Positions 722 to 58,054 of a stretch of 64,000 nt of DNA are shown here, one piece after another. Below the pieces are notes generated by a model. It saw nothing but the letters and a program-made list of their open reading frames with translations. It made no database searches and was not told where the DNA came from. Both the position numbers and the translations under genes were made by a program. Positions within the stretch are counted from its first letter, which is position 1. Each line of letters begins with the position of its first letter. The DNA is from an uncultured Acidobacteriota bacterium (GTDB lineage: Bacteria > Acidobacteriota > Terriglobia > Acidiferrales > UBA7541), in contig CAWDNJ010000001.1 of the NCBI GenBank assembly GCA_963803635.1, positions 344,668 to 408,667 of the forward strand, read 5' to 3'.

Positions 722-1432
722 CTAGAGCACTACGCTGATGGCAATCTGAGCGCCGGGATACGATGGGTTGCACAGGTAATACTCGCCGTTGATGTAATCG
801 ACGTAGACGTCGTCGGTGTAATACCAGTCCACCGGCCAGGGTTGAACGAATCCGAACCAATAGCCGCCGTACTGAAAGCGCGAATACCCGTCAACCAGCC
901 TTGGACTGCCGATGCGGAATTCGTGCCCACGGCCAAAATGGGAACGGAAGCGATCGTCAGGTATGCGACCTTCGCCTCGCGCGCTCAGCCGCAGTTCCGG
1001 CTGCGAGCGCTGTCTCTGCATTTCGACTGAGGTTCGCTGAACGTGCCCATTTCCGCCCGTGTTACCACGTTCTTCCTGGGTTACCGGCTTGGTCCGCGTC
1101 TCCGGTTTGGTAGCCTTGGCCTGTTCCTGGCGTTGCTCGGGCTTTGCTTGGCGTTGTTGCTTTACTGGCTTCGCCTGTTGCTCGTGCGCCGCCTTGCTCT
1201 GCGGTTCCTGCTTTGCGGATTTGGTTTCTTGTTTTGGTTCCTGGTTATTCGTCTTCGCCTGTTCCTGTTGTGCAGGCTTGGCCTGTCGCTCTTGCTTGGC
1301 GGGCTTGGCTTGTTCTTCGTGTTGCGCAGGCTTGGCGGCTTCGTCGTGGTGGTTGTCCTGCGCGAGGGCGGGAACAGCCGTCCCGAGAAGCAAAAACAGT
1401 GTTGCGGTGCTGATGATTCCAAGTACCTTCAT
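722..1432 (-). CDS. Secreted protein with K/Q/E/P-rich QAKP-type repeats and a Tyr/Trp-rich C-terminal domain
   Basis: The ORF is 722..1447. I prefer the ATG at 1432 (MKVLGIISTATLFLLLGTAVPALAQ signal peptide, GGAGG 8 nt upstream). The middle carries repeats (AKPAQHEEQAKPAKQERQAKPAQQEQAK...). The C-terminus is GYWFGFVQPWPVDWYYTDDVYVDYINGEYYLCNPSYPGAQIAISVVL. Confidence 0.75.
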   Translation of the reverse strand: MKVLGIISTATLFLLLGTAVPALAQDNHHDEAAKPAQHEEQAKPAKQERQAKPAQQEQAKTNNQEPKQETKSAKQEPQSKAAHEQQAKPVKQQRQAKPEQRQEQAKATKPETRTKPVTQEERGNTGGNGHVQRTSVEMQRQRSQPELRLSARGEGRIPDDRFRSHFGRGHEFRIGSPRLVDGYSRFQYGGYWFGFVQPWPVDWYYTDDVYVDYINGEYYLCNPSYPGAQIAISVVL

Positions 1433-1492
1433 GTGTGTTGCCTCCATTGCGGTAATTCTTGCGCCCTTCGCGCCAGTGTTATCGGACTTCGC

Positions 1493-1684
1493 TCAGGTCC
1501 CAACGTGCATGTGGGAGAGCGAATGAAAAAGCCCGAAAATATTGAGAAGCCATAAAACGGTGCAGATCACCACGACTGCATTCAGGATCGACTTGATCGT
1601 GCCCTGCATCGGTATGAAGCTGTTCACCAGCCAGAGCAGGACACCGATTACTACGAGAACCAGCAATATTTGAAGTAACGGCAT
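1493..1684 (-). CDS. Thivi_2564-like small membrane protein
   Basis: Internal ATG at 1684 of ORF 1493..1714. Product is MPLLQILLVLVVIGVLLWLVNSFIPMQGTIKSILNAVVVICTVLWLLNIFGLF, with two TM helices and a family-typical IKxILNAVVVI motif. Confidence 0.7.
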   Translation of the reverse strand: MPLLQILLVLVVIGVLLWLVNSFIPMQGTIKSILNAVVVICTVLWLLNIFGLFHSLSHMHVGT

Positions 1685-1965
1685 TTCTCTTTCCTTTTCT
1701 TCGCAGGGAGACACTCCGACCCGTCCCGGGGCGACGTATCGATTTCTGTTTTGGCCCGGAGAAACTGCTAGTGCCGGTTGGAGTGGGAAAGAACCTGCGA
1801 CATCCAGTGTTGTTCGAACCGAAGCTTTCGGGCTTGTTTCGCCCCAGTCTTGATTGCTTTACTCACAGGCAGCATCTTAGAGGACCTTACGATTGATATC
1901 TGTTCACTTGTGCACACATTCGCGCCCTGATTCGCGCGGCGTGTTACGATACAAACTTCAAAACC

Positions 1966-2643
1966 ATGGCAACCACGGCCCGAAATCGCCGGAAAACTGA
2001 TGCCAAACTGGCATTCAACGCCCAGGCGTTTCTCGACTCGGCGGGTGTGGCACGTAAGGTTGCGGAGTTCAAGAAAAAGGAAACGATTTTCTCGCAAGGC
2101 GACCATGGGAAGGAGGTCCTGTACATTCAAAAGGGTGGCGTCAGGCTGTCGGTCGTTAACGAAACTGGCAAAGAGGCTGTTGTAGGAGTGTTGGGCGCCA
2201 ATGACTTTTTCGGCGAGGGATGCCTTGCAGGCCAGTCGCTCCGGATCGGCACGGCGACGGCGATTGTGGCGACCACGGCTCTCGTGATCGAAAAGAAGGA
2301 AATGATTCGCGTCCTTCACTCCGAGCATGAGTTCTCCGACCGCTTCATCACCTACATGCTTTCGAGGAATATCCGGATCGAGGAGGATTTGGTCGATCAG
2401 CTGTTCAATTCGAGCGAGAAGCGGCTGGCCCGCACACTATTGCTGCTCGCCCAGTACGGCAGGGAAGATAAGCCCCAAAAGGTGCTCGCTAAAATATCGC
2501 AAGAGATGCTGGCCGAAATGGTGGGGACAACGCGTTCGCGCGTGAATTTCTTCATGAACAAATTCAGGAAACTCGGCTTCATCAAGTACAACGGCGAGAT
2601 TCACATTAACACCTCGCTCCTCAGCGTCGTCCTGCACGATTAA
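1966..2643 (+). CDS. Crp/Fnr family transcriptional regulator
   Basis: 225 aa. It has a cNMP-binding beta-roll (IFSQGDHGKEVLYIQKGGVRLSV...FFGEGCL) and a C-terminal HTH (SQEMLAEMVGTTRSRVNFFMNKFRKLGFI). Confidence 0.9.
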   Translation: MATTARNRRKTDAKLAFNAQAFLDSAGVARKVAEFKKKETIFSQGDHGKEVLYIQKGGVRLSVVNETGKEAVVGVLGANDFFGEGCLAGQSLRIGTATAIVATTALVIEKKEMIRVLHSEHEFSDRFITYMLSRNIRIEEDLVDQLFNSSEKRLARTLLLLAQYGREDKPQKVLAKISQEMLAEMVGTTRSRVNFFMNKFRKLGFIKYNGEIHINTSLLSVVLHD

Positions 2644-2797
2644 GTCCTGCAGCCCATGTTGACGCTCCAGACCGGCACCCGCCGTGCCTCAATTATCTCC
2701 TATCTGAACTCGAAGTTACGAAGACGAATCAGAACCGCCGAATCCCGATGTACAAGCCGCTTGCGGCACCCTAAAATATCCCTTTCCCAGGAGCCCA

Positions 2798-12443: not shown

Positions 12444-12569
12444 TTTTTCGAGAGCCTGAAGGCTCACGCTTCCACCGGTGATTCCTCGTCGGACCGAGTC
12501 CGACATCGTAGGAAGGCAAAGCAAGATCGCCCGCCTGAAGGCAAGGCGGCCGCTACAAAGGCGGGAACC
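12444..12569 (+). repeat. Two REP-like family C elements (12444-12485 and 12527-12569)
   Basis: The first copy, tttttcgagagcctgaaggctcacgcttccaccggtgattcc, matches 9022-9072. The second, atcgcccgcctgaaggcaaggcggccgctacaaaggcgggaacc, matches 15572-15620 and 55561-55610. Confidence 0.75.
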
Positions 12570-12653
12570 GAAAAACCCTCGCGACAAAGGTGGCCCTCGG
12601 CTAGATTATAGAAAGTGTTCTGACCGGACGATTAGAATTGAGAGATTGAACGT

Positions 12654-12992
12654 ATGGCAATACGAAGGAATAAACCGCAAATCGTTCCGAGCTCGGGAAA
12701 TGTTTTCGCCGATCTGCGTCTGCCGCAATCCGAGGAGAAGCAGACGAAGGTGCGGCTGGCTGTGGCCATCAATCAGATCATCGCGGGGCAGGACCTTTCA
12801 CAGGTGGCTGCCGGGCGGCGCCTGAAAATCAATCAGCCGAAAATCTCTGCGCTCGCGAATTACCGCCTCGACGGCTTCTCCGTCGAGCGCTTGATGCATT
12901 TCCTCGCGGCTCTGGACCGCGACGTCGAAATCGTCATCCGCCCGAAGCCCCGCTCGCGCAAAGGCGCGCGAATCCCCGTCACCGCCGCATGA
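12654..12992 (+). CDS. XRE-family HTH protein, HigA2-like antitoxin architecture, with no toxin partner
   Basis: 112 aa. The N-terminal SSGNVFADLRLPQSEE segment followed by the HTH (GQDLSQVAAGRRLKINQPKISALANYRLDGFSVERLMHFLAALDRDVEIVI) matches the HigA2-type layout. No RelE/HigB-like ORF lies upstream. Confidence 0.8.
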   Translation: MAIRRNKPQIVPSSGNVFADLRLPQSEEKQTKVRLAVAINQIIAGQDLSQVAAGRRLKINQPKISALANYRLDGFSVERLMHFLAALDRDVEIVIRPKPRSRKGARIPVTAA

Positions 12993-13021
12993 TTTTATTC
13001 GGGGGACGCTGATTCCTCGTA

Positions 13022-13050
13022 TTGACTATGGACGCGTGCCATAGCACACT
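13022..13050 (+). promoter_or_regulatory. Possible promoter/operator of the 645-aa gene: TTGACT (13022-13027), inverted repeat CTATGG-N7-CCATAG (13026-13044), weak -10-like CACACT (13045-13050)
   Basis: Read directly from the sequence. The -10 is weak, so the promoter call is tentative. The inverted repeat is exact for 6+6 nt. Confidence 0.3.
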
Positions 13051-13080
13051 TCGCGCTGATCAACTCTCTCCTTAGTCCAG

Positions 13081-15018
13081 ATGCGAACACTGACTGCATT
13101 CGTGGCCCGGAGCTTTTCCCCGAGCGATGATCGTAAGATCAAGCCTATCCTCGATCATCTGGATACGTTTCGAAATCTGGGCTTTGTGTGGAAGTCTGCG
13201 GAGCCGGCAGAGGTTGAGAGCGTTTCCGAAAAGGTTCAACGCATAATCGCCGAGTGTGAAGTGTTCGTGGGCGTATTGTCGCAGAGGCATCCCATATTTC
13301 GTTTCGCTAATCCCCTCGGTGATGCCTGGAGAATCCTCCGGAGAGAACTTAAGCCAGCCCAGTGGTCAGCTCCCCCGTGGGTCCTCCAAGAGGTAGGCTT
13401 TGCGCTTGGACTTCAAAAGAAGGTGATCCTATTTGTCGAGACGCAACTGGATTTGCCGGCCCTTCAGGGCGATCTGGAGTATATCCCATACGACCATCTG
13501 GATCCGACCGACGCATTTCTTCGATCGAGCAGCATGATCGTTGGACTGATTGCCAAGAGAGACGGACTCGCCGTCGAAACGGTTGTCCGCGAGGGAGCAG
13601 CCGAGGCGCAGGCACCTGAGAAGGCATCCGCGGAAGCAACCGAGGCGCCCCCGCAAACGGCGGCGGCAGAACCTCTCTTAACGGACGTCGTTTTTAGATT
13701 TTTTGAGGCTCTCGAGAAAAAAGACTTCTCGGCAGCGGATGAACAGGAAGAGGCTGGCCTAAAAGTCATAGCGGCCGGACGTACGTCCATGACGGAACTC
13801 AGCTGGAAGTGCTTCTGCCTTTCCGATAGATACGTCGCCGGCGATACTGAGGCCATCGAAAAACTAAGGGCCCTTCAAGAAGCGAACCCGCAGGACCAGG
13901 CGCCGTCCATGCAAATAGGACGCGCCCTCATGGAGTTCAAAGAGTTCGAACAAGCTGCGAGGTATTTCGAGCGCGCGGGGGAGATTTCGCAGAGGGATAG
14001 CGAAAGAGTCCACAACGTTTTGCGCGCCGCAGACGCATACGTGCAGGCCAAAATGGTCCACCGGGCTGAAAGTATCTTGGTCGGAATGCTGGACGGCGCC
14101 GGGCCTGAGTCCAGAGAGCAGGCATCTCAGAAGTTATACGACATACTAAAGTGTTCAAGCGACATCTACGCAGCCTTCGGCCTTGCCGAAGCGACACTTC
14201 GGAACAATCCCGCCTTAACTTCCTTCAGATTTCGGCTCGGCCTGGACTACAATGAAAAGAATCAGGATGCCCTGTTCCTCTATCACTACAGCCTTCTCCA
14301 AGAACACGACCCAAACGGGGCGGGCGTTATTCACAACTTAGCCCTGGCGTTCTCAAGCTGCGATCTACCCATGAAGTCCGTTTCCTACTATAAGAAGGGG
14401 ATCGAATTGGGCGAAACGCTTTCCGCAAACAATCTTGCGCGTAAGTACTTAGACGCTGGGATTGTTGATGAAACGCAGGCCATGCTGATGGATGCTCTGA
14501 AGAAACCCGATGTTGATGCCAGAGTGGGGCAGTGTTTGGGCGAACTTCGTGACAGACAGGAGAGGGAAGAGAAGAAGTATGCGAGTGTCATGGAAGCTGC
14601 GAACGAGCAACGGTCGTTCCTTATAGCTGTCGGCGAAGGCCGATTTCAAAGCGTTGTGCCAGTCATCGCGGGTCGGTGGCTGATGCCATTCGGTGAAATG
14701 GAACTTCAGCAAACATCTGAAGTTCTCAAGGGAACAGCACAGAAGGCGGAGAAGGCATCCGCGTTTTCGACCCTGCTTGGTGGCCCAAAAGAGAAAATTC
14801 GAACCTTTACGTTGATCGGCTCCATGAAAGGAGCGGCCTGTACGTTCCGGTTGACGAGCGGCTTCGGGGAGACCCCAGAAGAGATCCTCAGCGCTGGACC
14901 GGACACAGTCGATGGAGTTCTTGTATTCGGCCCTGAGGGCAAAACCGGCCGTTATGCCGAAATTAAGGAGCGCGGCTTGTCGAATTTTGCTCCCATTACG
15001 CGTCTGCCCGGTACATGA
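13081..15018 (+). CDS. TIR-like/DUF4062-like N-terminal domain + TPR-like repeats + unknown C-terminal domain (645 aa)
   Basis: The N-terminus reads FVARSFSPSDD...KVQRIIAECEVFVGVLS...SAPPWVLQEVGFALGLQKKVILFVE, a TIR-like Rossmannoid pattern with a candidate catalytic Glu. Residues about 200-500 are helical repeats (AARYFERAGE, NNPALTSFRFRLGLDY, SVSYYKKGIELGE). The C-terminal ~130 aa are unassigned. Sampled lines give about 50-55% GC. Confidence 0.7.
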   Translation: MRTLTAFVARSFSPSDDRKIKPILDHLDTFRNLGFVWKSAEPAEVESVSEKVQRIIAECEVFVGVLSQRHPIFRFANPLGDAWRILRRELKPAQWSAPPWVLQEVGFALGLQKKVILFVETQLDLPALQGDLEYIPYDHLDPTDAFLRSSSMIVGLIAKRDGLAVETVVREGAAEAQAPEKASAEATEAPPQTAAAEPLLTDVVFRFFEALEKKDFSAADEQEEAGLKVIAAGRTSMTELSWKCFCLSDRYVAGDTEAIEKLRALQEANPQDQAPSMQIGRALMEFKEFEQAARYFERAGEISQRDSERVHNVLRAADAYVQAKMVHRAESILVGMLDGAGPESREQASQKLYDILKCSSDIYAAFGLAEATLRNNPALTSFRFRLGLDYNEKNQDALFLYHYSLLQEHDPNGAGVIHNLALAFSSCDLPMKSVSYYKKGIELGETLSANNLARKYLDAGIVDETQAMLMDALKKPDVDARVGQCLGELRDRQEREEKKYASVMEAANEQRSFLIAVGEGRFQSVVPVIAGRWLMPFGEMELQQTSEVLKGTAQKAEKASAFSTLLGGPKEKIRTFTLIGSMKGAACTFRLTSGFGETPEEILSAGPDTVDGVLVFGPEGKTGRYAEIKERGLSNFAPITRLPGT

Positions 15019-15571
15019 GTTGCGCCCGGAACATCCTTTGATCAAATTGCCGCCATGCGCTGGTCGGGGTGCGCCAGAACTCTTGCCCGCGCCTGCTCAT
15101 GGCCGAGTTTCGACGGGGCGTCGGGGAGCTGGCGTGGGCGAGATGATACAGGTGGCGGGTGGATGGTGGCAGGTGGCGGGTTGGGCGGGCCGGTTCCGGC
15201 GGATTGCGGATTTGAGATTTCAGGTTTGAGAGAAATCCGCCCATCCGAAGGCGAGACAGGACCCCACGAAGCGGAGGTTCCCGCCGTGCCGGCGCCGAGA
15301 TTCCTCAGGCCTCGCCACGGCGCCCACTTTTCGCGCGGTGCGAGGTGAATGGGCGCGAAAATCGGGCTGCTCCGCCTTCGGAATGACGGGTCCCGGGGAT
15401 TGGCGGCAGAGGATATCTGAGGCTGCTACGAACGGCCACGGCTGCCGCGCTAAAAGGCCGCGGCGCTACATTTAGACCTCGATGCAAGGGCCCGCGCAGC
15501 AAGCCTTCGTCGCTCAGGCCAAGGCAGCGCCCCTACGAAGCAAACCCCCAAAAAAACAAAACCATAAGGCA

Positions 15572-15620
15572 AAACCGCCCGCCTGAAAGGCGGCCGCTAC
15601 GAAGGCAACGGCTGCCGCGC
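15572..15620 (+). repeat. REP-like element, family C variant (aaaccgcccgcctgaaaggcggccgctacgaaggcaacggctgccg)
   Basis: It is nearly identical to 55561-55610. A related copy lies at 12527-12569, a degenerate one at 15436-15475, and an inverted fragment at 53926-53950. Confidence 0.8.
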
Positions 15621-52495: not shown

Positions 52496-52615
52496 GCCGT
52501 CATTCTGCTCGCCCTGACGAAGGAAGGAGCCGCACGTGCCGTCATTCTGCCTGCCCTAACGAAGGAAGGAGCCGCGCGTGCCGTCATTCTGAGCGAAGCG
52601 AAGAATCTCTCTTCG
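52496..52615 (+). repeat. Tandem array of REP family A: 42-bp unit x2 plus a variant terminal unit
   Basis: The units are 52496-52537 and 52538-52579 (gccgtcattctgcYYgccctRacgaaggaaggagccgcRcgt), then 52580-52615 (gccgtcattctgagcgaagcgaagaatctctcttcg). Confidence 0.9.
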
Positions 52616-52644
52616 TGTTTCGAATTTCGCTTTTCGTCCTTTGG

Positions 52645-53808
52645 CTACTTGCCGAGCAACTGGCGGGCGATCACCATGCGTTGAATTTCGCTGGTGCCTT
52701 CGCCGATGGTGCAGAGTTTTACGTCGCGGTAATACTTTTCGGCGGGATAATCCTTGATGAAGCCGTAGCCGCCGTGGATTTGGACGGCTTCGTTGGCCAC
52801 GCGCACGGCGACCTCTCCGGCATAAAGCTTCGCCATGCTCGATTCACGCGTGATGCGCGCGTCGTCGGCGCCCGACGCGATCGCCTGGTCGGCCATCCAC
52901 GCCGCGCGATATGTCAGCAGGCGCGCCGCATCGATCTGCGTCGCCATGTCCGCCAGCTTGAACTGGATCGCCTGAAATTCCGCGATCGCTTTGCCGAATT
53001 GCTTGCGCTCTTTCGCGTAGCGCACCGAGCATTCGTACGCGCCCTGCGCCATGCCCAGCCCGAGCGACGCTATCGAAATCCGTCCGCCATCCAGAATCTG
53101 CAGACTGTTGACGAAGCCGTCGCCCTCGCGTCCCAGCAAATTCCCCGCCGGCACGCGGCAGTCGGTGAACACCACTTCGCTCGTGTCGCTCGCGCGCAGC
53201 CCCAGCTTGTTTTCTTTCTTGCCCGGGCGAAATCCCGGCGTGCCCTTCTCGATCACAAATGCCGAAATGCCGCGCGACTTTTTCCCCGCGTCGGTCACCG
53301 CCATCGCCACGCACACGTCCGCGTAGTGCCCATTCGTTGTGAACGTTTTCGAGCCGTTGATCAACCAGCCGCCGTTTTTTCGCACAGCGACGGTGCGCGT
53401 CCCGCCCGCGTCCGAGCCTGCTTCAGGCTCCGTCAGCGACCAGCAGCCGAGCTTCTTCCCCTGCGCCAGCGGGACCACATATTTCTGCCGCTGCTCCTCG
53501 GTGCCGAATTTGAAAATGTGATTCGTGCAGAGCGAATTGTGCGCCGCCACAATGATGCCGACCGACCCATCCACGCGCGACAATTCCTCAATGATGATCG
53601 CGTATTCGACGTACCCCATCCCCGCGCCGCCGTATTTCTCGGGAAAGATCACGCCGAGCAATCCCATCTCGGCCAGCTTCGGAATGATTTCGGAGGGAAA
53701 CTTCGAGGCTTCGTCCCACTCCATCACGTGCGGCGCGATTTCGCCCTCGGCGAATTCGCGGACGGTGCGGCGAAGGTGCTGCTGCTCGTCGGTAAGCGAA
53801 AATTCCAC
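52645..53808 (-). CDS. Acyl-CoA dehydrogenase (short/medium-chain type)
   Basis: 387 aa. It has [45 protein letters not shown], and the catalytic Glu context. Confidence 0.92.
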
Positions 53809-53869
53809 GCTCCATTTATATCACGCGCGACGACCGCCGACGCTTCTCGTCCGCGGCCCTGACCCATCT

Positions 53870-53902
53870 CGTCATCCCGCCTGCCCTGACGCAGGAAGGG
53901 AG
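53870..53902 (+). repeat. REP family A copy (cgtcatcccgcctgccctgacgcaggaagggag)
   Basis: It matches the family A core and is followed by an inverted family C fragment at 53926-53950. Confidence 0.7.
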
Positions 53903-54043
53903 AAGGTGCCGCGTTTCTCGCCTTCCTAGCGGCCGCCTTTCAGGCGCGCGACTTGGAACAGTGCTCTGAGGCAAGGAGAGCAGCCGAGAGACTCAGATCG
54001 TTCCGTTTGCACGCGTGGGAAGGTACAATTACGGTCACATAAT

Positions 54044-55480
54044 ATGCCGAAGTTCTCAACTGCTTTTGGAATCGGCAAGACGCAGGCCGAGCTCGATTTC
54101 GTTGACGTATCGCTGACGACTGACAACCGCCTATTCCTCGATCCCTTCGCTCTCTCACAAAGGTCAGACCGTTGGTCAGAAGACGCGCACCGTACGGTGG
54201 TCGCATTTTTTCAGAGCCTTGTGGATGACATTCGGCGGGGCAATGATGATAGACCTCGGCGGCTCCTTCTGAATTTGCGTGAACCCAATGAAACACGACT
54301 CGGCTACTCAAGGCGGCACCCCCAAGGCACGGGGATCGGCGTCATGCAGGCAGAACAGCTCTTTGAAGCGCTCCGGGACTCGGCTGCGGTTAAAACGGGA
54401 TTCATTAACTCGCTCGAAGAGTCGGAGCTGATGATCGACGGAATCAGTTACGACAAGATCTCCGACCTCGCCACGAACATTCTTAGGGCTCACCTGGCGG
54501 ACTACACGCTTCAGCAATGCAACCTACACTCCATACCGACTCAGGAAGTCGCGATGCCGCCGTGCTTTAACACTGACCGAATGGAGTGGGAGGCGCGATA
54601 TTTGGCGCTGCCCATTTATCGCGGCTCTCCAGTGTTACTGGTTCCTAAAACCATTGTCAGACGAAGTCCCGCTTACGAGCAGCAACGCTACTACCAGCAT
54701 TTCGTCCTCAGTTTTCTGCAGCAGGAAGAACTAAACAATCCCGCGTCACGTCTAGCGAGGACCTTAAAGAATGAGAGGCGGGTAGTCTATAAAACCGATC
54801 TCGCGGCCGTATATCCGCGGGCGAAGGGCTTCCTCTATGATTTCTCACGCCAGCATCCTGAGGTGCTGCGCGGCTTTCGGGAGTGGCTGGCGGCAAGTGA
54901 AGCGCGCAGAACAACGAGTGATGTCGACGAAGAAGACGAGGCCTTCATTGCGTCCGCTCTAGCAGAGGCCCTTCGACACATCCCGGTTGGCGGCGAGAAT
55001 GCGTCTGAATATCACGGCCTGATGATAGGGATGGTAGAGTTTCTTTTTTTCCCTAACCTGGTGCATCCACGGAAGGAACATGAAATTCATGAGGGTCGGA
55101 AGCGCATTGATATCCTCATGGAAAACGGCGCGAGCGCCGGCATCTTTCACCGGATACCTACGACCCGCAGGTTGCCATGCGCCTATGTCCCCTTCGAATG
55201 CAAGAACTACGCCACCGAAGTTGCGAATCCGGAGCTGGACCAGCTCGCGGGTCGTTTTTCTATTAACCGCGGCAAGATGGGCTTCCTCTGCTGCCGACAC
55301 TTTGAAAACAGGGAATTGTTTGTTCAACGGTGCCGCGACACATTCACAGATGACCGCGGTCTCATAATTCCGCTGGATGACACCACGATCCTGCGGATGC
55401 TCCGGTCGATAGAGGACCACCGTCGGAACGACCTGGACGCCGCGCTCTCCGATCTAGTCGCAGAAGTATGGGCGGGATAG
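54044..55480 (+). CDS. Unknown N-terminal region (~330 aa) fused to a PD-(D/E)xK / Mrr-cat-like nuclease core (478 aa)
   Basis: The C-terminal pattern is a helix with Glu (EYHGLMIGMVEFLF), GRKRIDILMEN (Asp), YVPFECKNY (E-x-K), then ELDQLAGRF and KMGFLCC. A sampled line gives about 52% GC. REP clusters flank both sides. Confidence 0.7.
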   Translation: MPKFSTAFGIGKTQAELDFVDVSLTTDNRLFLDPFALSQRSDRWSEDAHRTVVAFFQSLVDDIRRGNDDRPRRLLLNLREPNETRLGYSRRHPQGTGIGVMQAEQLFEALRDSAAVKTGFINSLEESELMIDGISYDKISDLATNILRAHLADYTLQQCNLHSIPTQEVAMPPCFNTDRMEWEARYLALPIYRGSPVLLVPKTIVRRSPAYEQQRYYQHFVLSFLQQEELNNPASRLARTLKNERRVVYKTDLAAVYPRAKGFLYDFSRQHPEVLRGFREWLAASEARRTTSDVDEEDEAFIASALAEALRHIPVGGENASEYHGLMIGMVEFLFFPNLVHPRKEHEIHEGRKRIDILMENGASAGIFHRIPTTRRLPCAYVPFECKNYATEVANPELDQLAGRFSINRGKMGFLCCRHFENRELFVQRCRDTFTDDRGLIIPLDDTTILRMLRSIEDHRRNDLDAALSDLVAEVWAG

Positions 55481-55560
55481 GAGGCTTTCCTGATTCGCGG
55501 CCTTTTCATACCCGCGCGCCCACGTTTGTCGTGCTTGGCCGCCTCATCCAGAGTTAATAC

Positions 55561-55610
55561 AAACCCGCCCGGCCTGAAAGGCCGCCGCTACGAAGGCAAC
55601 AGCACTGCCG
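55561..55610 (+). repeat. REP family C copy (aaacccgcccggcctgaaaggccgccgctacgaaggcaacagcactgccg)
   Basis: It is nearly identical to 15572-15620. Confidence 0.8.
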
Positions 55611-55867
55611 GGAGCTCACGGAGTCGAGGTTTTTCCCCCTGGCCGTTTCCTGTACTGCAGGGCAGTTGATCCGCGCTTGCGCAGTGGTAGCGTGGTAGGA
55701 GCTATGCGCGAACGCGGAACATTATCGGCGAGCGGAGATCGAAAAACGTTCAGGCACCGAGGAGTGTTTCTGCCCTACTTGTGCCAGCGACAGACATCGG
55801 CCGAAGGATCGGCGAATCGCGCCGCCTCCCTGCCACGAATCACCAATCGCCGGTCACAAATCGTGCA

Positions 55868-55897
55868 ATTTCTAATCGACATTTGGCGATTAGAAAT
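55868..55897. repeat. Perfect 11-bp inverted repeat hairpin (atttctaatcg N8 cgattagaaat)
   Basis: Read directly from the sequence. A third half-site, ttctaatcgac, lies at 55934-55944. Confidence 0.75.
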
Positions 55898-55960
55898 GGC
55901 TGCAAGTCACAGAAAACACACGATGGGTGCACGTTCTAATCGACACGGTAAGGGGGGAAC

Positions 55961-56005
55961 GCGAAGAGAGATTCTTCGGGCAGAACCCGCCCTCAGAATG
56001 ACGGC
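55961..56005 (-). repeat. REP family A terminal-type unit, inverted
   Basis: The reverse complement, gccgtcattctgagggcgggttctgcccgaagaatctctcttcgc, parallels 52580-52615. Confidence 0.75.
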
Positions 56006-56171
56006 TGCCGAACGCAACGACGCCAGTATGGCGACTCGACGGCGCCGGAAAATCGCGGCAGACACCACAGCGCCCGCTCGCTGCGGAACCGATACCCTCG
56101 ATGTGGACCACGGCAAGACTGCCGGGCTAAAGAACCCGGCGCTACGCGCAAACCTACGGCAAAGAGCCCGA

Positions 56172-56951
56172 TTAGTTCGCGGCGGACTGGCGCGCCGCCA
56201 CGTGTGTGCGGGCGGGGCCGGACGCCCAGGCGATGGCGATGTCGAGCTCGTCGTAGGCGAAGCTTTTCACCTCGGCCTTGATGAAGACATCCGCGAGCGC
56301 CGGAGCGATGCTGGCCAGCTTGCTATCCGCGGCGAATGCGATTCGCTTGACGTGACGCTGATGGTCGCGGACGAACCGCAGGTGGCGCAGCATGCTTCCC
56401 ATATTTTCCCAGCCGGGAAACTCGCGGACGTGGATCACGAGCCCCTGCAGGTCGCCATGCGCTTCGATCCAGGCATCGGCGGTCATCGCGAGCGCGTCGA
56501 AATCCTGGGCGCGCAGCGCTTGCTTTGCTTCGACGACGATCACGCCGGACTCGGGGATGAGGCGGTGAGAAACGGTGGCGCCTTCGGGAAGAGCGGCGAG
56601 CCATTCGACGGCCTTGCCGAATTCCTGATTGCTGAATACCTTCGCCGGGCATGGCATGAAAAAGCCCATCAAACGGGTCGATTCGCGGATCCAACCGATG
56701 TCCGTGACGACGGCGCAACCGTCGAAGAGGCGCATCGAATGGAGGCCGATCTTCGCGTCTTCCCACGCAGCCGCGGGTGTAAAGCCCTCGAACTCCGGGC
56801 CGAGCTGATACAGGAAGCGGAGGCGGCGTCCTTCGCGGCGCGCTTCATCCATGAGCGGAAGGCAAACCTTTTCGTAATCTTCTTTCGAAAGCTTTCCGAC
56901 AGCTTTCATTCCATCGATTCCCTTTGGGAGACCTTCAATTTTCTCGAGCAT
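56172..56951 (-). CDS. Tandem STAS/SEC14-like (SpoIIAA-like, DUF3478-type) domain protein
   Basis: ATG at 56951 (AAGAGG upstream). The two homologous halves are ...GKLSKEDYEKVCLPLMDEARREGRRLRFLYQLGPEFEGF...FDGCAVVTD... and ...ALRAQDFDALAMTADAWIEAHGDLQGLVIHVREFPGW...VKRIAFAAD... Confidence 0.7.
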   Translation of the reverse strand: MLEKIEGLPKGIDGMKAVGKLSKEDYEKVCLPLMDEARREGRRLRFLYQLGPEFEGFTPAAAWEDAKIGLHSMRLFDGCAVVTDIGWIRESTRLMGFFMPCPAKVFSNQEFGKAVEWLAALPEGATVSHRLIPESGVIVVEAKQALRAQDFDALAMTADAWIEAHGDLQGLVIHVREFPGWENMGSMLRHLRFVRDHQRHVKRIAFAADSKLASIAPALADVFIKAEVKSFAYDELDIAIAWASGPARTHVAARQSAAN

Positions 56952-57024
56952 GGGACCTCTTTTCTGCTGCTGGGCGACAGCGAGAACATGATAGCACCGG
57001 CGGATCAAAGGCAAATGCAACTGA

Positions 57025-57058: not shown

Positions 57059-58054
57059 CTAGATGGCGAGTTCGGCGACGCCGGAGCGGTGGCCTACGGC
57101 GCGCAGGGTGAGGTCGGCGAGGGCGCGGATCAGGAGCGGCGAATCGTTGAGCGCCGGCATCATGTGAAAATCGCGGACGCCCAGCGATTCGGCCTGCTCG
57201 CGCGCCTCGATATTGATTTCGTGCAGCGTCTCGATGTGCTCGGTGAGGAACGCAATCGGGATCACGAGCATGCGGCGCACGCCTTCACGCGCCAGCCGTT
57301 CGATCGTCCCCGTAAGCGACGGCTGCAGCCACTTCTGCGGGCCGACCTTGCTCTGGAAACACAGCGTGTGCGGATTCTCCCACGCGCCGAGCTCGCAGAC
57401 GAGTTTTACGGTGTCCGCGATCTGCTGCGGGTACGGATCGCCCTTTTCGACGAGCGTCATCGGCAGGCCGTGCGCGCTGAAAACGAGATGCACGTCGTCG
57501 GGGCGCGGCAACTGGCAGAGAACGCTGTTGGTCCGCTCGACGATTCCCGTGAGGTAATCGGGATGATCGAAGAAATGATCGATCAGATGGACCGGGACTT
57601 TCGGCTTGTAGAGGCGATTCCATTCCTTGAGGCTGCTGCCGGTGGTCGCGAAGGAATAGTGCGGGTAGAGCGGAAGCAGAACGAGTTCGTCGAAGGGGCC
57701 GGCCTCGAGCGCGGAAATCGCCTCGATCGTGTTCGGGTGCCAGTAACGCATGGCGACGACAACGCGCGCGGGAATCACCGGACGCAACGCGGCTTGGAGC
57801 GCCCGTCCCTGCTGCTCGGTGAGACGGCGGATCGGCGAGCCTCCGCCGATTTCGGCGTACTTGATGCGAGCGCTCTTCGAGCGGAAAGTCGAAATGCCCT
57901 TTGCGAGGAGCTTGCGCGCAAGAAACGAGCCGGGAAAATTGATGATGTCGGGATCGCAGAAAAGATTATAGAGGAAAGGCTCGACGGCTTCCTGCGAATC
58001 CGGGCCGCCCAGCTGAAACAGGACGACGGCGATATTTTTCGTTTCCGGCATCAC
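57059..58054 (-). CDS. hemH: Ferrochelatase
   Basis: 331 aa. Motifs are VVLFQLGGPDS, YAEIGGGSPI, RYWHP, LPLYPHYS, FSAHGLP and IAFLTEHIETL. Confidence 0.92.
   Translation of the reverse strand: MMPETKNIAVVLFQLGGPDSQEAVEPFLYNLFCDPDIINFPGSFLARKLLAKGISTFRSKSARIKYAEIGGGSPIRRLTEQQGRALQAALRPVIPARVVVAMRYWHPNTIEAISALEAGPFDELVLLPLYPHYSFATTGSSLKEWNRLYKPKVPVHLIDHFFDHPDYLTGIVERTNSVLCQLPRPDDVHLVFSAHGLPMTLVEKGDPYPQQIADTVKLVCELGAWENPHTLCFQSKVGPQKWLQPSLTGTIERLAREGVRRMLVIPIAFLTEHIETLHEINIEAREQAESLGVRDFHMMPALNDSPLLIRALADLTLRAVGHRSGVAELAI

What the first reader, a model, noticed from the sequence alone, without database searches (positions are those of the whole stretch)
54044..55480. Lower-GC single gene: novel ~330-aa N-terminal region fused to a PD-(D/E)xK (Mrr-cat-like) nuclease core, bracketed by REP clusters
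Seen in sequence: the last ~150 aa show the canonical restriction-endonuclease-fold order. There is a helix with Glu (EYHGLMIGMVEFLF), a strand with Asp (GRKRIDILMEN), a strand with E-x-K (YVPFECKNY), then a helix (ELDQLAGRF) and a hydrophobic strand (KMGFLCC). I cannot assign the preceding 330 aa (MPKFSTAFGIGKTQAELDFVDVSLTTDNRLFLDPFAL...). There is no adjacent methyltransferase, helicase or ATPase. A sampled line gives ~52% GC. The gene sits between convergent/unrelated core genes (acyl-CoA dehydrogenase and STAS-like/hemH). REP elements lie on both sides (53870-53950 and 55561-56005), and about 690 bp of non-coding sequence follows it. Established knowledge: stand-alone PD-(D/E)xK nucleases with variable N-terminal sensor domains act as single-gene antiphage systems (Shedu/SduA) or as type IV restriction enzymes (Mrr). 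Inference: this is a single-protein nucleic-acid-targeting defence candidate with an undescribed sensor domain.
Basis: partly seen in the sequence, partly recalled or inferred. Interest (0 to 1): 0.64.

Follow-up and report, generated by a model that had tools for sequence, protein, structure and literature searches.

The report
Inserted DUF8370 sensor–nuclease defence gene candidate
A single foreign gene inserted between core genes of a soil acidobacterium encodes a restriction-type DNA-cutting domain joined to a large, widespread, uncharacterised domain with no matching solved structure, and it is most likely a one-protein anti-phage defence whose trigger is unknown.

Summary
ORF 54044-55480 (+, 478 aa) is intact. 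Its GC is 55.3% (GC3 63%) against 61% (GC3 74-80%) for its neighbours, and it has no methyltransferase, helicase or ATPase partner.

The three closest relatives keep hemH-STAS-ACAD with a 253-383 bp spacer and no such gene. The window's spacer is 2363 bp, so the gene is an insertion.

The C-terminal ~180 aa have the alpha-beta-beta-beta-alpha-beta core of the restriction-endonuclease fold. D356, E385 and K387 are kept in 224-227 of 231 full-length sequences. Pfam Mrr_cat hits and structural hits to restriction enzymes are weak.

The N-terminal ~290 aa give a confident model (pLDDT 92) with no PDB match. This domain is not uncatalogued: homologues carry Pfam DUF8370, and it matches the untested PADLOC candidate PDC-M36A.

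In relatives the same N-domain heads other C-terminal modules: CHAT protease, EAD1-trypsin, a PDC-M14B-like part, or none. One full-length member adds a PNP domain. The CHAT module is 53% identical to that of a SAVED-CHAT protein, so the N-domain sits in a sensor slot.

Homologues occur at unrelated loci, in defence islands, on plasmids and in viral contigs.

Best reading: a stand-alone sensor-nuclease defence protein. No phage test exists and the trigger is unknown. It is not a member of Shedu or Mrr.

The parts
54044..55480 (+). DUF8370-family gene, 478 aa, intact. The true start is 54044; a public gene call (P0002, 378 aa) starts at M101.
   Evidence: DNA homology to the closest homologues runs 54022-55484 only
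54044..54919 (+). N-terminal domain (residues 1 to about 292). It is mostly helical with a beta-hairpin. D137, S140 and P201 are invariant in all 231 full-length sequences; F19, E80 and D141 hold in 230, D27 in 229. A Gly-rich loop (residues ~88-99) is poorly modelled. Proposed sensor module.
   Evidence: PADLOC PDC-M36A match over residues 2-228
54938..55477 (+). C-terminal PD-(D/E)xK (Mrr_cat-like) nuclease domain, residues about 299-478.
55109..55111 (+). Codon of D356 in GRKRIDI, the putative metal-binding Asp.
55196..55204 (+). Codons of E385-C386-K387, the E-x-K catalytic motif.
53829..56165 (.). Genome-specific spacer that carries the gene. It replaces a 253-383 bp spacer in the closest relatives.
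53920..53945 (.). Left arm of the REP-type inverted pair, 98 bp upstream of the ATG.
55572..55597 (.). Right arm of the REP-type inverted pair, 92 bp after the stop. It contains a short hairpin. A third copy lies at 15581.
55958..56005 (.). Copy of a second REP family, complementary to 52580-52619. A 45-bp part (55959-56003) is also present in the empty-site spacer of L011.

Best explanation
The gene is a horizontally acquired, stand-alone defence gene of the DUF8370 family.

Shown here:
- It is an insertion of essentially a bare ORF into a core-gene spacer.
- Both domains are under strong purifying selection.
- The C-domain has the restriction-endonuclease (PD-(D/E)xK, Mrr_cat-like) core with a conserved D...E-x-K triad.
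- The N-domain is a separate module that heads different C-terminal modules in relatives and sits in the slot that SAVED holds in SAVED-CHAT proteins.

Inferred:
- The N-domain detects an infection cue through its conserved acidic pocket and Gly-rich loop. The cue could be a phage component, foreign nucleic acid or a small nucleotide-like molecule.
- On binding it activates the C-terminal nuclease, probably by a change of conformation or assembly state.
- The nuclease then cuts DNA, either destroying the invader or killing the infected cell (abortive infection).
For: Insertion. L010, L011 and L012 have flanking genes 86-98% identical in protein (L012's ACAD match is partial, 167 aa). They keep hemH-STAS-ACAD with spacers of 295, 253 and 383 bp and no DUF8370 gene. 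The window's spacer is 2363 bp, and homology breaks at about 53823-53828 and 56166-56174.

Foreign composition. GC is 55.3% and GC3 63%, against GC3 of 74-80% in the neighbours.

Selection. pN is 0.12-0.22 with pS about 0.8 (saturated), in both domains.

Nuclease. The model's secondary structure gives the alpha-beta-beta-beta-alpha-beta order. D356, E385 and K387 are kept in 224, 227 and 227 of 231 sequences. Sixteen of 67 members weakly hit Mrr_cat, 5 HSDR_N_2 and 4 RRG7. The top fold hits, though weak, are restriction-fold proteins: VC1899, Nt.BspD6I, FokI, Can2, EcoT38I and viral 'Mrr' or 'restriction endonuclease' proteins.

Sensor logic. The N-domain (43% identical over residues 3-279) is fused to CHAT in P0247, P0271, P0272 and P0274. 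That CHAT module is 53% identical (E 1e-87) to the one in a SAVED-CHAT protein. Other partners are EAD1 plus Trypsin_2 (P0335), a PNP_UDP_1 domain added to a full-length member (P0128) and a PDC-M14B-like part (P0252, P0270). It also stands alone on complete small plasmids.

Context. Homologues lie in defence or mobile settings: Telmatobacter with integrase, GmrSD and a 7-deazaguanine/DndB cluster; a B. mycoides plasmid with TOPRIM, UvrD, integrase and McrBC; a prophage-like region with ThsB-TIR, caspase and FRG; a BrxR/WYL regulator; a SEFIR/TIR neighbour with Tn7-type TnsA and TniB genes a few kb downstream. There are 23 IMG/VR viral contigs, a full-length PHROG match and a PADLOC candidate match.
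Against: - No experiment on any family member was found.
- About half of the sampled full-length homologues, this one included, sit among housekeeping genes with no defence neighbour.
- Structural and profile matches of the C-domain to known nucleases are all below significance (best Foldseek E 0.03 against PDB and 0.002 against BFVD; best Mrr_cat E 8e-4).
- The invariant acidic residues of the N-domain look as much like an enzyme active site as a binding pocket, so it might be catalytic and not a sensor.
- No trigger, ligand or oligomeric state is known.
- Expression in this organism was not tested, and no good sigma-70-type promoter lies upstream.
Confidence: 0.6

Rival explanations
1. It is a type IV (modification-dependent) restriction enzyme. 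The N-domain reads a modified base in phage DNA and the Mrr-like C-domain cuts that same DNA directly, with no cell suicide.
For: The catalytic domain is Mrr_cat-like. It is a single gene without a methyltransferase. Some homologues lie next to GmrSD, McrBC and a DNA-modification cluster. The top PDB hits include type IIS enzymes that have separate recognition domains.
Against: The same N-domain heads CHAT and trypsin proteases and accompanies a PNP nucleosidase. These make little sense behind a reader meant to target cleavage to the bound DNA. The N-domain has no Mrr_N, SRA, EVE, YTH or winged-helix match and no PDB fold match. Its family-median pI is near neutral (6.6) and its invariant residues are acidic, which is not typical of a DNA-binding surface.
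Confidence: 0.15
2. It is an orphan effector of a second-messenger pathway. The N-domain is a receptor, functionally like SAVED or CARF, for a nucleotide signal made by a cyclase or Cas10 encoded elsewhere in the genome.
For: The N-domain replaces SAVED in front of a homologous CHAT module. The weak top PDB hits include CARF-nucleases (VC1899, Can2, Cdn1). The N-domain has a Gly-rich loop and an invariant acidic cluster.
Against: None of about 12 examined loci has an adjacent cyclase, Cas10 or TIR signal generator in an operon with the gene. The gene moves as a bare ORF. The window's genome could not be searched for cyclases, because the genome search was shut.
Confidence: 0.12
3. It is a selfish or maintenance nuclease of mobile DNA, such as a homing-type or addiction function, and not a host defence.
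For: It is a bare-ORF insertion in an intergenic spacer between conserved genes with no integrase. N-only relatives lie on very small plasmids. One homologue sits next to a ParE toxin gene.
Against: No cognate immunity or antitoxin gene travels with it. Swapping of the C-terminal module for proteases or a nucleosidase does not fit homing. There are no target-site duplications or private terminal repeats; the flanking repeat is a genome-wide REP element.
Confidence: 0.08
4. It is a housekeeping DNA-repair or recombination nuclease of the host.
For: It has a PD-(D/E)xK fold, and its immediate neighbours here are core genes.
Against: It is absent from the same locus in the three closest relatives. 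Its position differs in every homologue examined. Its composition is foreign. It has no NCBIfam or Pfam repair-family match.
Confidence: 0.02

Closest known systems
Pfam DUF8370 (PF28123) and PADLOC phage-defence candidate PDC-M36, component A (Payne et al., bioRxiv 10.1101/2024.01.29.577857)
   Same: All homologues listed, including the window's own cluster (P0002), carry the precomputed PF28123 tag. The N-domain (residues 2-228) matches PDC-M36A at E 2.4e-45.
   Different: PDC-M36 is an untested three-gene cassette, FAM_01399>>FAM_00303>>FAM_00303. Here there is one gene only. The match covers only half of the 457-position PADLOC profile, and the C-terminal nuclease is not part of the match.
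Mrr-type type IV restriction endonucleases (Mrr_N + Mrr_cat)
   Same: A single polypeptide without a methyltransferase, and a C-terminal PD-(D/E)xK domain closest to Mrr_cat by weak profile hits.
   Different: There is no Mrr_N winged-helix domain. Mrr_cat scores are below threshold. The N-domain is about 290 aa with no solved-structure match, and it is shared with protease fusions.
Shedu (SduA; variable N-terminus + DUF4263 nuclease)
   Same: The logic is the same: a single-gene defence with a variable N-terminal regulatory or sensing region and a C-terminal PD-(D/E)xK nuclease (from my own knowledge of the family).
   Different: There is no PADLOC Shedu or Pfam DUF4263 match for the window protein or for 67 family members. 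No Shedu chain appears among the top 50 fold hits.
SAVED- or CARF-headed effectors of CBASS and type III CRISPR (SAVED-CHAT, Cap4, Can2/Card1)
   Same: A sensor head followed by an interchangeable effector. The CHAT module of DUF8370-CHAT is 53% identical to that of a SAVED-CHAT protein. Weak fold hits go to the nuclease-bearing CARF proteins VC1899, Can2 and Cdn1.
   Different: There is no SAVED or CARF domain and no signal-generating enzyme nearby. The head domain has no detectable relation to either.

Membership tests
PD-(D/E)xK (restriction-endonuclease-like) superfamily | Alpha-beta-beta-beta-alpha-beta core in the right order | tested here: met
   AF2 model (pLDDT 93.7): H317-335, E339-348, E353-361, E381-387, H395-402, E412-417
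PD-(D/E)xK (restriction-endonuclease-like) superfamily | Conserved Asp on strand 2 and (D/E)-x-K on strand 3 | tested here: met
   D356 in 224, E385 in 227 and K387 in 227 of 231 full-length sequences
PD-(D/E)xK (restriction-endonuclease-like) superfamily | Significant structural or profile similarity to a known member | tested here: inconclusive
   The best hits are of the right kind but weak: Foldseek PDB E 0.03-0.2 (VC1899, Nt.BspD6I, FokI), BFVD E 0.002-0.1; Mrr_cat in 16 of 67 members, best E 8e-4, below the gathering score.
Mrr (type IV restriction) | Mrr_N winged-helix DNA-binding domain at the N-terminus | tested here: not met
   No Pfam hit in the window protein at E<=1 or in 67 members at E<=0.1; the N-domain has no PDB fold match
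Mrr (type IV restriction) | Mrr_cat match above Pfam's threshold | tested here: not met
   No hit for the window protein; subthreshold hits in 16 of 67 relatives
Shedu (SduA) | DUF4263-type nuclease domain or PADLOC Shedu model | tested here: not met
   PADLOC returns only PDC-M36A; no DUF4263 among the 67 members
PADLOC PDC-M36 | Match to component A | tested here: met
   PDLC04597 at E 2.4e-45, but only residues 2-228 against profile positions 6-233 of 457
PADLOC PDC-M36 | Three-gene cassette (FAM_01399 plus two FAM_00303 genes) | tested here: not met
   The insertion holds one ORF; the neighbours are ACAD and a STAS-like gene
Pfam DUF8370 (PF28123) | Match to the family model | tested here: met
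   The precomputed PF28123 tag is on the window's own cluster (P0002) and on all listed homologues. The local Pfam copy gave no hit, probably because it lacks this model. The tag stays with the N-domain in CHAT and trypsin fusions.
CBASS / type III CRISPR effectors (Cap4, Can2, SAVED-CHAT) | SAVED or CARF ligand-binding domain | tested here: not met
   No Pfam or PADLOC SAVED or CARF hit on the window protein; the N-domain fold search found nothing
CBASS / type III CRISPR effectors (Cap4, Can2, SAVED-CHAT) | Signal-generating enzyme (CD-NTase or Cas10) in the locus | tested here: not met
   None in the window locus or in about 12 homologue loci. The rest of the genome could not be searched.
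NucS / housekeeping repair nucleases | Family profile match and conserved core synteny | tested here: not met
   No Pfam or NCBIfam hit; empty site in the closest relatives

The most novel reading that the evidence does not exclude
The DUF8370 N-domain is a previously unrecognised immune sensor with a new fold. It would be the functional equivalent of SAVED or CARF, binding a phage-derived cue or a nucleotide-like signal through its invariant acidic pocket and Gly-rich loop. It would then switch on whichever effector is fused behind it: Mrr-like nuclease, CHAT or trypsin protease, or PNP nucleosidase. The family spans about 2,300 clusters at 50% identity across several bacterial phyla, plasmids and prophages.
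Probability: 0.35. Interest if true: 0.8.

Novelty: new variant of a known kind. Interest (0 to 1): 0.6.

Why it matters
Single-protein sensor-effector defences are a known kind. What limits understanding is the sensors: what they detect and how. This is a large, cross-phylum family with 2285 clusters at 50% identity. Its head domain models confidently yet matches no solved structure, and it provably exchanges places with SAVED on a homologous CHAT effector. That gives a concrete, testable entry point to a possible new class of infection sensor. The window adds a clean natural experiment, a bare-gene insertion with an empty site in sister genomes, which shows that the gene is self-sufficient cargo. 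It also shows that a public gene call for this ORF omits the first 100 residues, including several invariant ones.

Tried and rejected
- Sequence searches of the whole protein, the 67-member profile and the N-domain profile against all PDB chains gave nothing meaningful.
- The local Pfam and NCBIfam copies gave no hit for the window protein.
- tblastn against GenBank phage records found no match, although IMG/VR viral contigs and a PHROG family do hold relatives.
- I considered that the flanking 26-nt inverted repeat might be the terminal repeat of a small mobile cassette. I rejected this because a third copy lies at 15581 and none of the homologues' loci has it.
- I tried to map the insertion to the base. 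The whole spacer differs from the empty-site spacers apart from one 45-bp REP copy, so no target-site duplication can be called.
- The Rfam scan of the spacers found nothing significant. The sigma-70 and terminator scans were no better than shuffles.
- The Nt.BspD6I and FokI fold hits aligned about 300 columns, which hinted at a type IIS-like recognition domain. The N-domain alone finds neither, so I dropped the idea.
- Other low-GC ORFs in the window have no PADLOC match.
- Literature searches for DUF8370, PF28123 and PDC-M36 found no paper. The PADLOC preprint's held supplements give only the cassette composition.
Full report
**1. The observation**

The ORF is real: 54044-55480, + strand, ATG start, 478 aa. 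Its immediate neighbours are an acyl-CoA dehydrogenase (52645-53808, -), a SpoIIAA/STAS-like gene (56172-57020, -) and ferrochelatase (57059-58054, -). A large DUF3857/transglutaminase/TPR protein lies further left. No methyltransferase, helicase or ATPase gene is adjacent.

The gene's GC is 55.3% and its GC3 63%. The window is 61.0%, and the four neighbours have GC3 of 74-80%. Only 2.9% of equally long windows are lower. So 'lower GC' is right, although the figure of about 52% applies to a local stretch only.

A 26-nt inverted pair (53920-53945 and 55572-55597, 92% complementary) brackets the ORF. The same element occurs a third time at 15581, where 0.05 matches are expected by chance, and it contains a short hairpin. 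It is therefore a dispersed REP-type element. A second repeat family lies at 55958-56005. The 691 bp after the stop hold only shadow ORFs and no significant Rfam match.

**2. The gene is an insertion**

Anchoring on the STAS-like gene fetched 72 related loci, and these place the organism among Acidobacteriota MAGs, Candidatus Acidiferrales. The three closest, L010, L011 and L012, have flanking proteins 86-98% identical to the window's (L012's ACAD match is partial). They keep hemH-STAS-ACAD, with spacers of only 295, 253 and 383 bp between STAS and ACAD, and none encodes a DUF8370 relative. In the window that spacer is 2363 bp.

DNA homology to these relatives stops at about 53823-53828 on the left and 56166-56174 on the right. 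More distant relatives (L013, L015, L053) carry a ~527-aa gene of host-like GC in this spacer, and L014 has two further small ORFs. The site is therefore variable.

Against the loci of the closest DUF8370 homologues (75-79% protein identity), DNA similarity covers only 54022-55484, which is the ORF plus 22 bp upstream. What is shared between genomes is the bare gene.

Synonymous sites against these homologues are saturated (pS about 0.8), while pN is 0.12-0.22 in each domain. Both halves are under strong purifying selection.

**3. The family**

There are more than 2000 homologues in the 90%-clustered collection. The exhaustive search found 2285 clusters at 50% identity with E<=0.001, 404 of them at E<=1e-30. 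The ~480-aa architecture holds down to about 31% identity.

All listed homologues carry the precomputed Pfam tag PF28123, named DUF8370. My Pfam copy gave no hit. NCBIfam has nothing. PHROGs has a full-length match to phrog_27295, of unknown function, at E 2.4e-92. PADLOC matches only PDC-M36A, at E 2.4e-45, and only over residues 2-228.

PDC-M36 is one of 145 untested 'guilt-by-embedding' candidates. It is a three-gene cassette, FAM_01399>>FAM_00303>>FAM_00303. No paper mentions DUF8370, PF28123 or PDC-M36.

A public gene call for this ORF (P0002, 378 aa) starts at M101. The homologues show that the 478-aa form is the real one.

**4. The C-terminal domain**

The AlphaFold model built from a 67-sequence alignment is very confident (pLDDT 93.7, pTM 0.92). 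Residues 317-417 run helix, strand, strand (D356), strand (E385-x-K387), helix, strand.

D356, E385 and K387 are kept in 224, 227 and 227 of 231 full-length sequences. E345, N388, Q400 and R404 are also nearly invariant.

Scanning each of the 67 members against Pfam gives weak Mrr_cat hits in 16, HSDR_N_2 in 5 and RRG7 in 4, all of which I know as restriction-endonuclease-fold families. The full-length Foldseek search has no hit at E<=0.001. Its top hits are nonetheless restriction-fold proteins: VC1899, Nt.BspD6I, FokI, Can2 and EcoT38I in the PDB, and 'restriction endonuclease' or 'Mrr' proteins in BFVD.

I read this as a real but divergent PD-(D/E)xK nuclease domain, nearest to Mrr_cat.

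**5. The N-terminal domain**

Residues 1-292, modelled alone, are again confident (pLDDT 92.3). The domain is mostly helical, with a beta-hairpin (167-189) and several short strands. Foldseek against the PDB finds nothing (best E 2.5, TM about 0.1), and profile searches of PDB sequences find nothing.

The conserved residues are striking. D137, S140 and P201 are invariant in all 231 sequences. F19, E80 and D141 hold in 230, D27 in 229, and D18, D33 and K202 are nearly invariant. A Gly-rich loop (G-x-P-x-G-R-G-x-G, residues ~88-99) is the only poorly modelled stretch. The family-median pI of this domain is 6.6.

The pattern suggests a pocket that binds a metal or a phosphate-bearing ligand. That is inference.

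**6. The N-domain is a swappable head**

On plasmids many hits cover only the first 250-300 residues. Complete small plasmids carry N-only proteins of about 305-318 aa. Among the representatives the N-domain is joined to other C-termini:
- P0247 has CHAT.
- P0128 is a full-length member with an added PNP_UDP_1 domain, which also matches a PADLOC 'PN-superfamily' effector model.
- P0252 and P0270 have a PDC-M14B-like part.

A search with P0247 shows that DUF8370-CHAT is a real subfamily: P0247, P0271, P0272 and P0274 come from different sources. It also turns up a DUF8370-EAD1-Trypsin_2 protein, P0335.

Window residues 3-279 align with P0247 residues 40-323 at 43% identity (E 1e-76). P0247 residues 337-599 align at 53% identity (E 1e-87) with residues 409-666 of P0346, a protein carrying precomputed SAVED and CHAT tags.

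So DUF8370 and SAVED are alternative heads on homologous CHAT modules. From my own knowledge, SAVED is a cyclic-oligonucleotide sensor. This is the strongest evidence here that the N-domain acts as a sensor or regulator. No sequence or fold relation to SAVED was found, so the similarity is one of architecture only.

**7. Contexts**

Full-length homologues sit at unrelated places.

Among housekeeping genes:
- between miaA and a TetR gene (L001, L002), with one small-contig variant next to a ParE toxin gene (L003)
- beside a TonB-dependent receptor
- after ribonucleotide reductase
- between a sugar kinase and ribosomal protein S1

In defence or mobile settings:
- Telmatobacter, with an integrase, a GmrSD-type gene, HNH genes and a QueC/QueE/QueD/FolE/DndB cluster
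- a B. mycoides plasmid, with TOPRIM and UvrD genes, an integrase and McrBC
- a VWA-PP2C-kinase trio with a solo Cas1 gene nearby
- a prophage-like region with ThsB-TIR, caspase and FRG genes

The swapped variants behave likewise. DUF8370-CHAT has a 400-aa gene immediately downstream in both loci. Upstream lies a BrxR/WYL regulator in one and a Peptidase_M78 gene in the other. The trypsin fusion lies beside a SEFIR/TIR gene, with Tn7-type TnsA and TniB genes a few kb downstream. Twenty-three IMG/VR viral contigs encode relatives.

No locus has a cyclase or Cas10 next to the gene.

**8. Interpretation**

Shown:
- a foreign, intact, selected gene inserted alone into a core spacer
- a C-terminal restriction-fold nuclease with a conserved catalytic triad
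- an N-terminal module with no solved-structure match that is interchangeable with SAVED and is followed by different effector-type modules
- a patchy, mobile, often defence-linked distribution

Inferred:
- the protein is a one-component defence
- its N-domain senses an infection cue and releases the nuclease

Alternatives:
- A modification-dependent restriction enzyme is the main one. It fits the Mrr-like domain but not the protease and nucleosidase fusions.
- An orphan receptor for a messenger made elsewhere is possible, but the gene's consistent solitude argues against it.
- A selfish homing or addiction nuclease, or a repair nuclease, fits poorly.

It is not a member of Shedu, Mrr, NucS or the SAVED/CARF effectors by any test I could run. 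It belongs to DUF8370 and shares its head with the PADLOC candidate PDC-M36A.

**9. Earlier notes of this scan**

A follow-up on another genome (e1-2391530) reached the same family and a similar reading. I reached the family assignment, its size and the defence-neighbour pattern independently here. This report adds the empty-site test and the SAVED-CHAT alignment. Another first-reader note (e1-3903552) concerns the 691-bp spacer downstream. I only confirmed its repeats.

**10. Verdict**

The finding is a new variant of a known kind: a single-protein sensor-nuclease defence with an uncharacterised head domain. The family is already catalogued as a DUF and as an untested PADLOC candidate. Interest is moderate to good, because the head domain is widespread, models confidently, matches nothing solved and occupies a proven sensor slot.

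Noticed in passing
window 54044-54343: A public gene call for this ORF (P0002, 378 aa, 100% identical) starts at M101. It omits the first 100 residues, which hold the invariant or near-invariant D18, F19, D27, D33 and E80. Homologues show the 478-aa form is correct.
   Followed up: yes
window 12500-15612: A second low-GC segment (about 53-56%) holds a 645-aa ORF (13081-15018, +) with only a weak TPR hit and no PADLOC match. The third copy of the REP-type hairpin element lies about 560 bp downstream of it (15575-15612).
   Followed up: partly
window 1000-2750: A third low-GC segment holds a Crp-family (cNMP_binding + HTH_Crp_2) regulator at 1966-2643 and two ORFs without any Pfam or PADLOC match (722-1447 -, 1768-2328 -).
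   Followed up: partly
L013 8938-10521; L015 9440-11023; L053 8891-10537; L014 9338-10128: The STAS-ACAD spacer is a variable site among relatives. Three carry a ~527-548-aa gene of host-like GC there. L014 additionally has two small ORFs (128 and 142 aa); the second looks PIN-like from its N-terminal sequence, but it was not scanned.
   Followed up: partly
L108 9852-11054 (and the same position in the P0274 contig): DUF8370-CHAT genes are followed in both loci by a 400-aa gene with no Pfam hit, which may be a partner or a substrate of the protease.
   Followed up: no
window 55863-55945: A near-perfect hairpin (GCAATTTCTAATCGACA / TGGCGATTAGAAATGGC) lies in the downstream spacer, with a further direct copy of the half-site 64 bp later. 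It could be an operator or a small structured element. It is the subject of another finding (e1-3903552).
   Followed up: no
L009 6001-7769 (Acinetobacter plasmid p3AsACE): An N-domain-only relative (305 aa) is followed by two small hypothetical genes (83 and 173 aa) and preceded divergently by an XRE-type HTH gene and an ImmA/IrrE gene. This may be a split version of the system.
   Followed up: no
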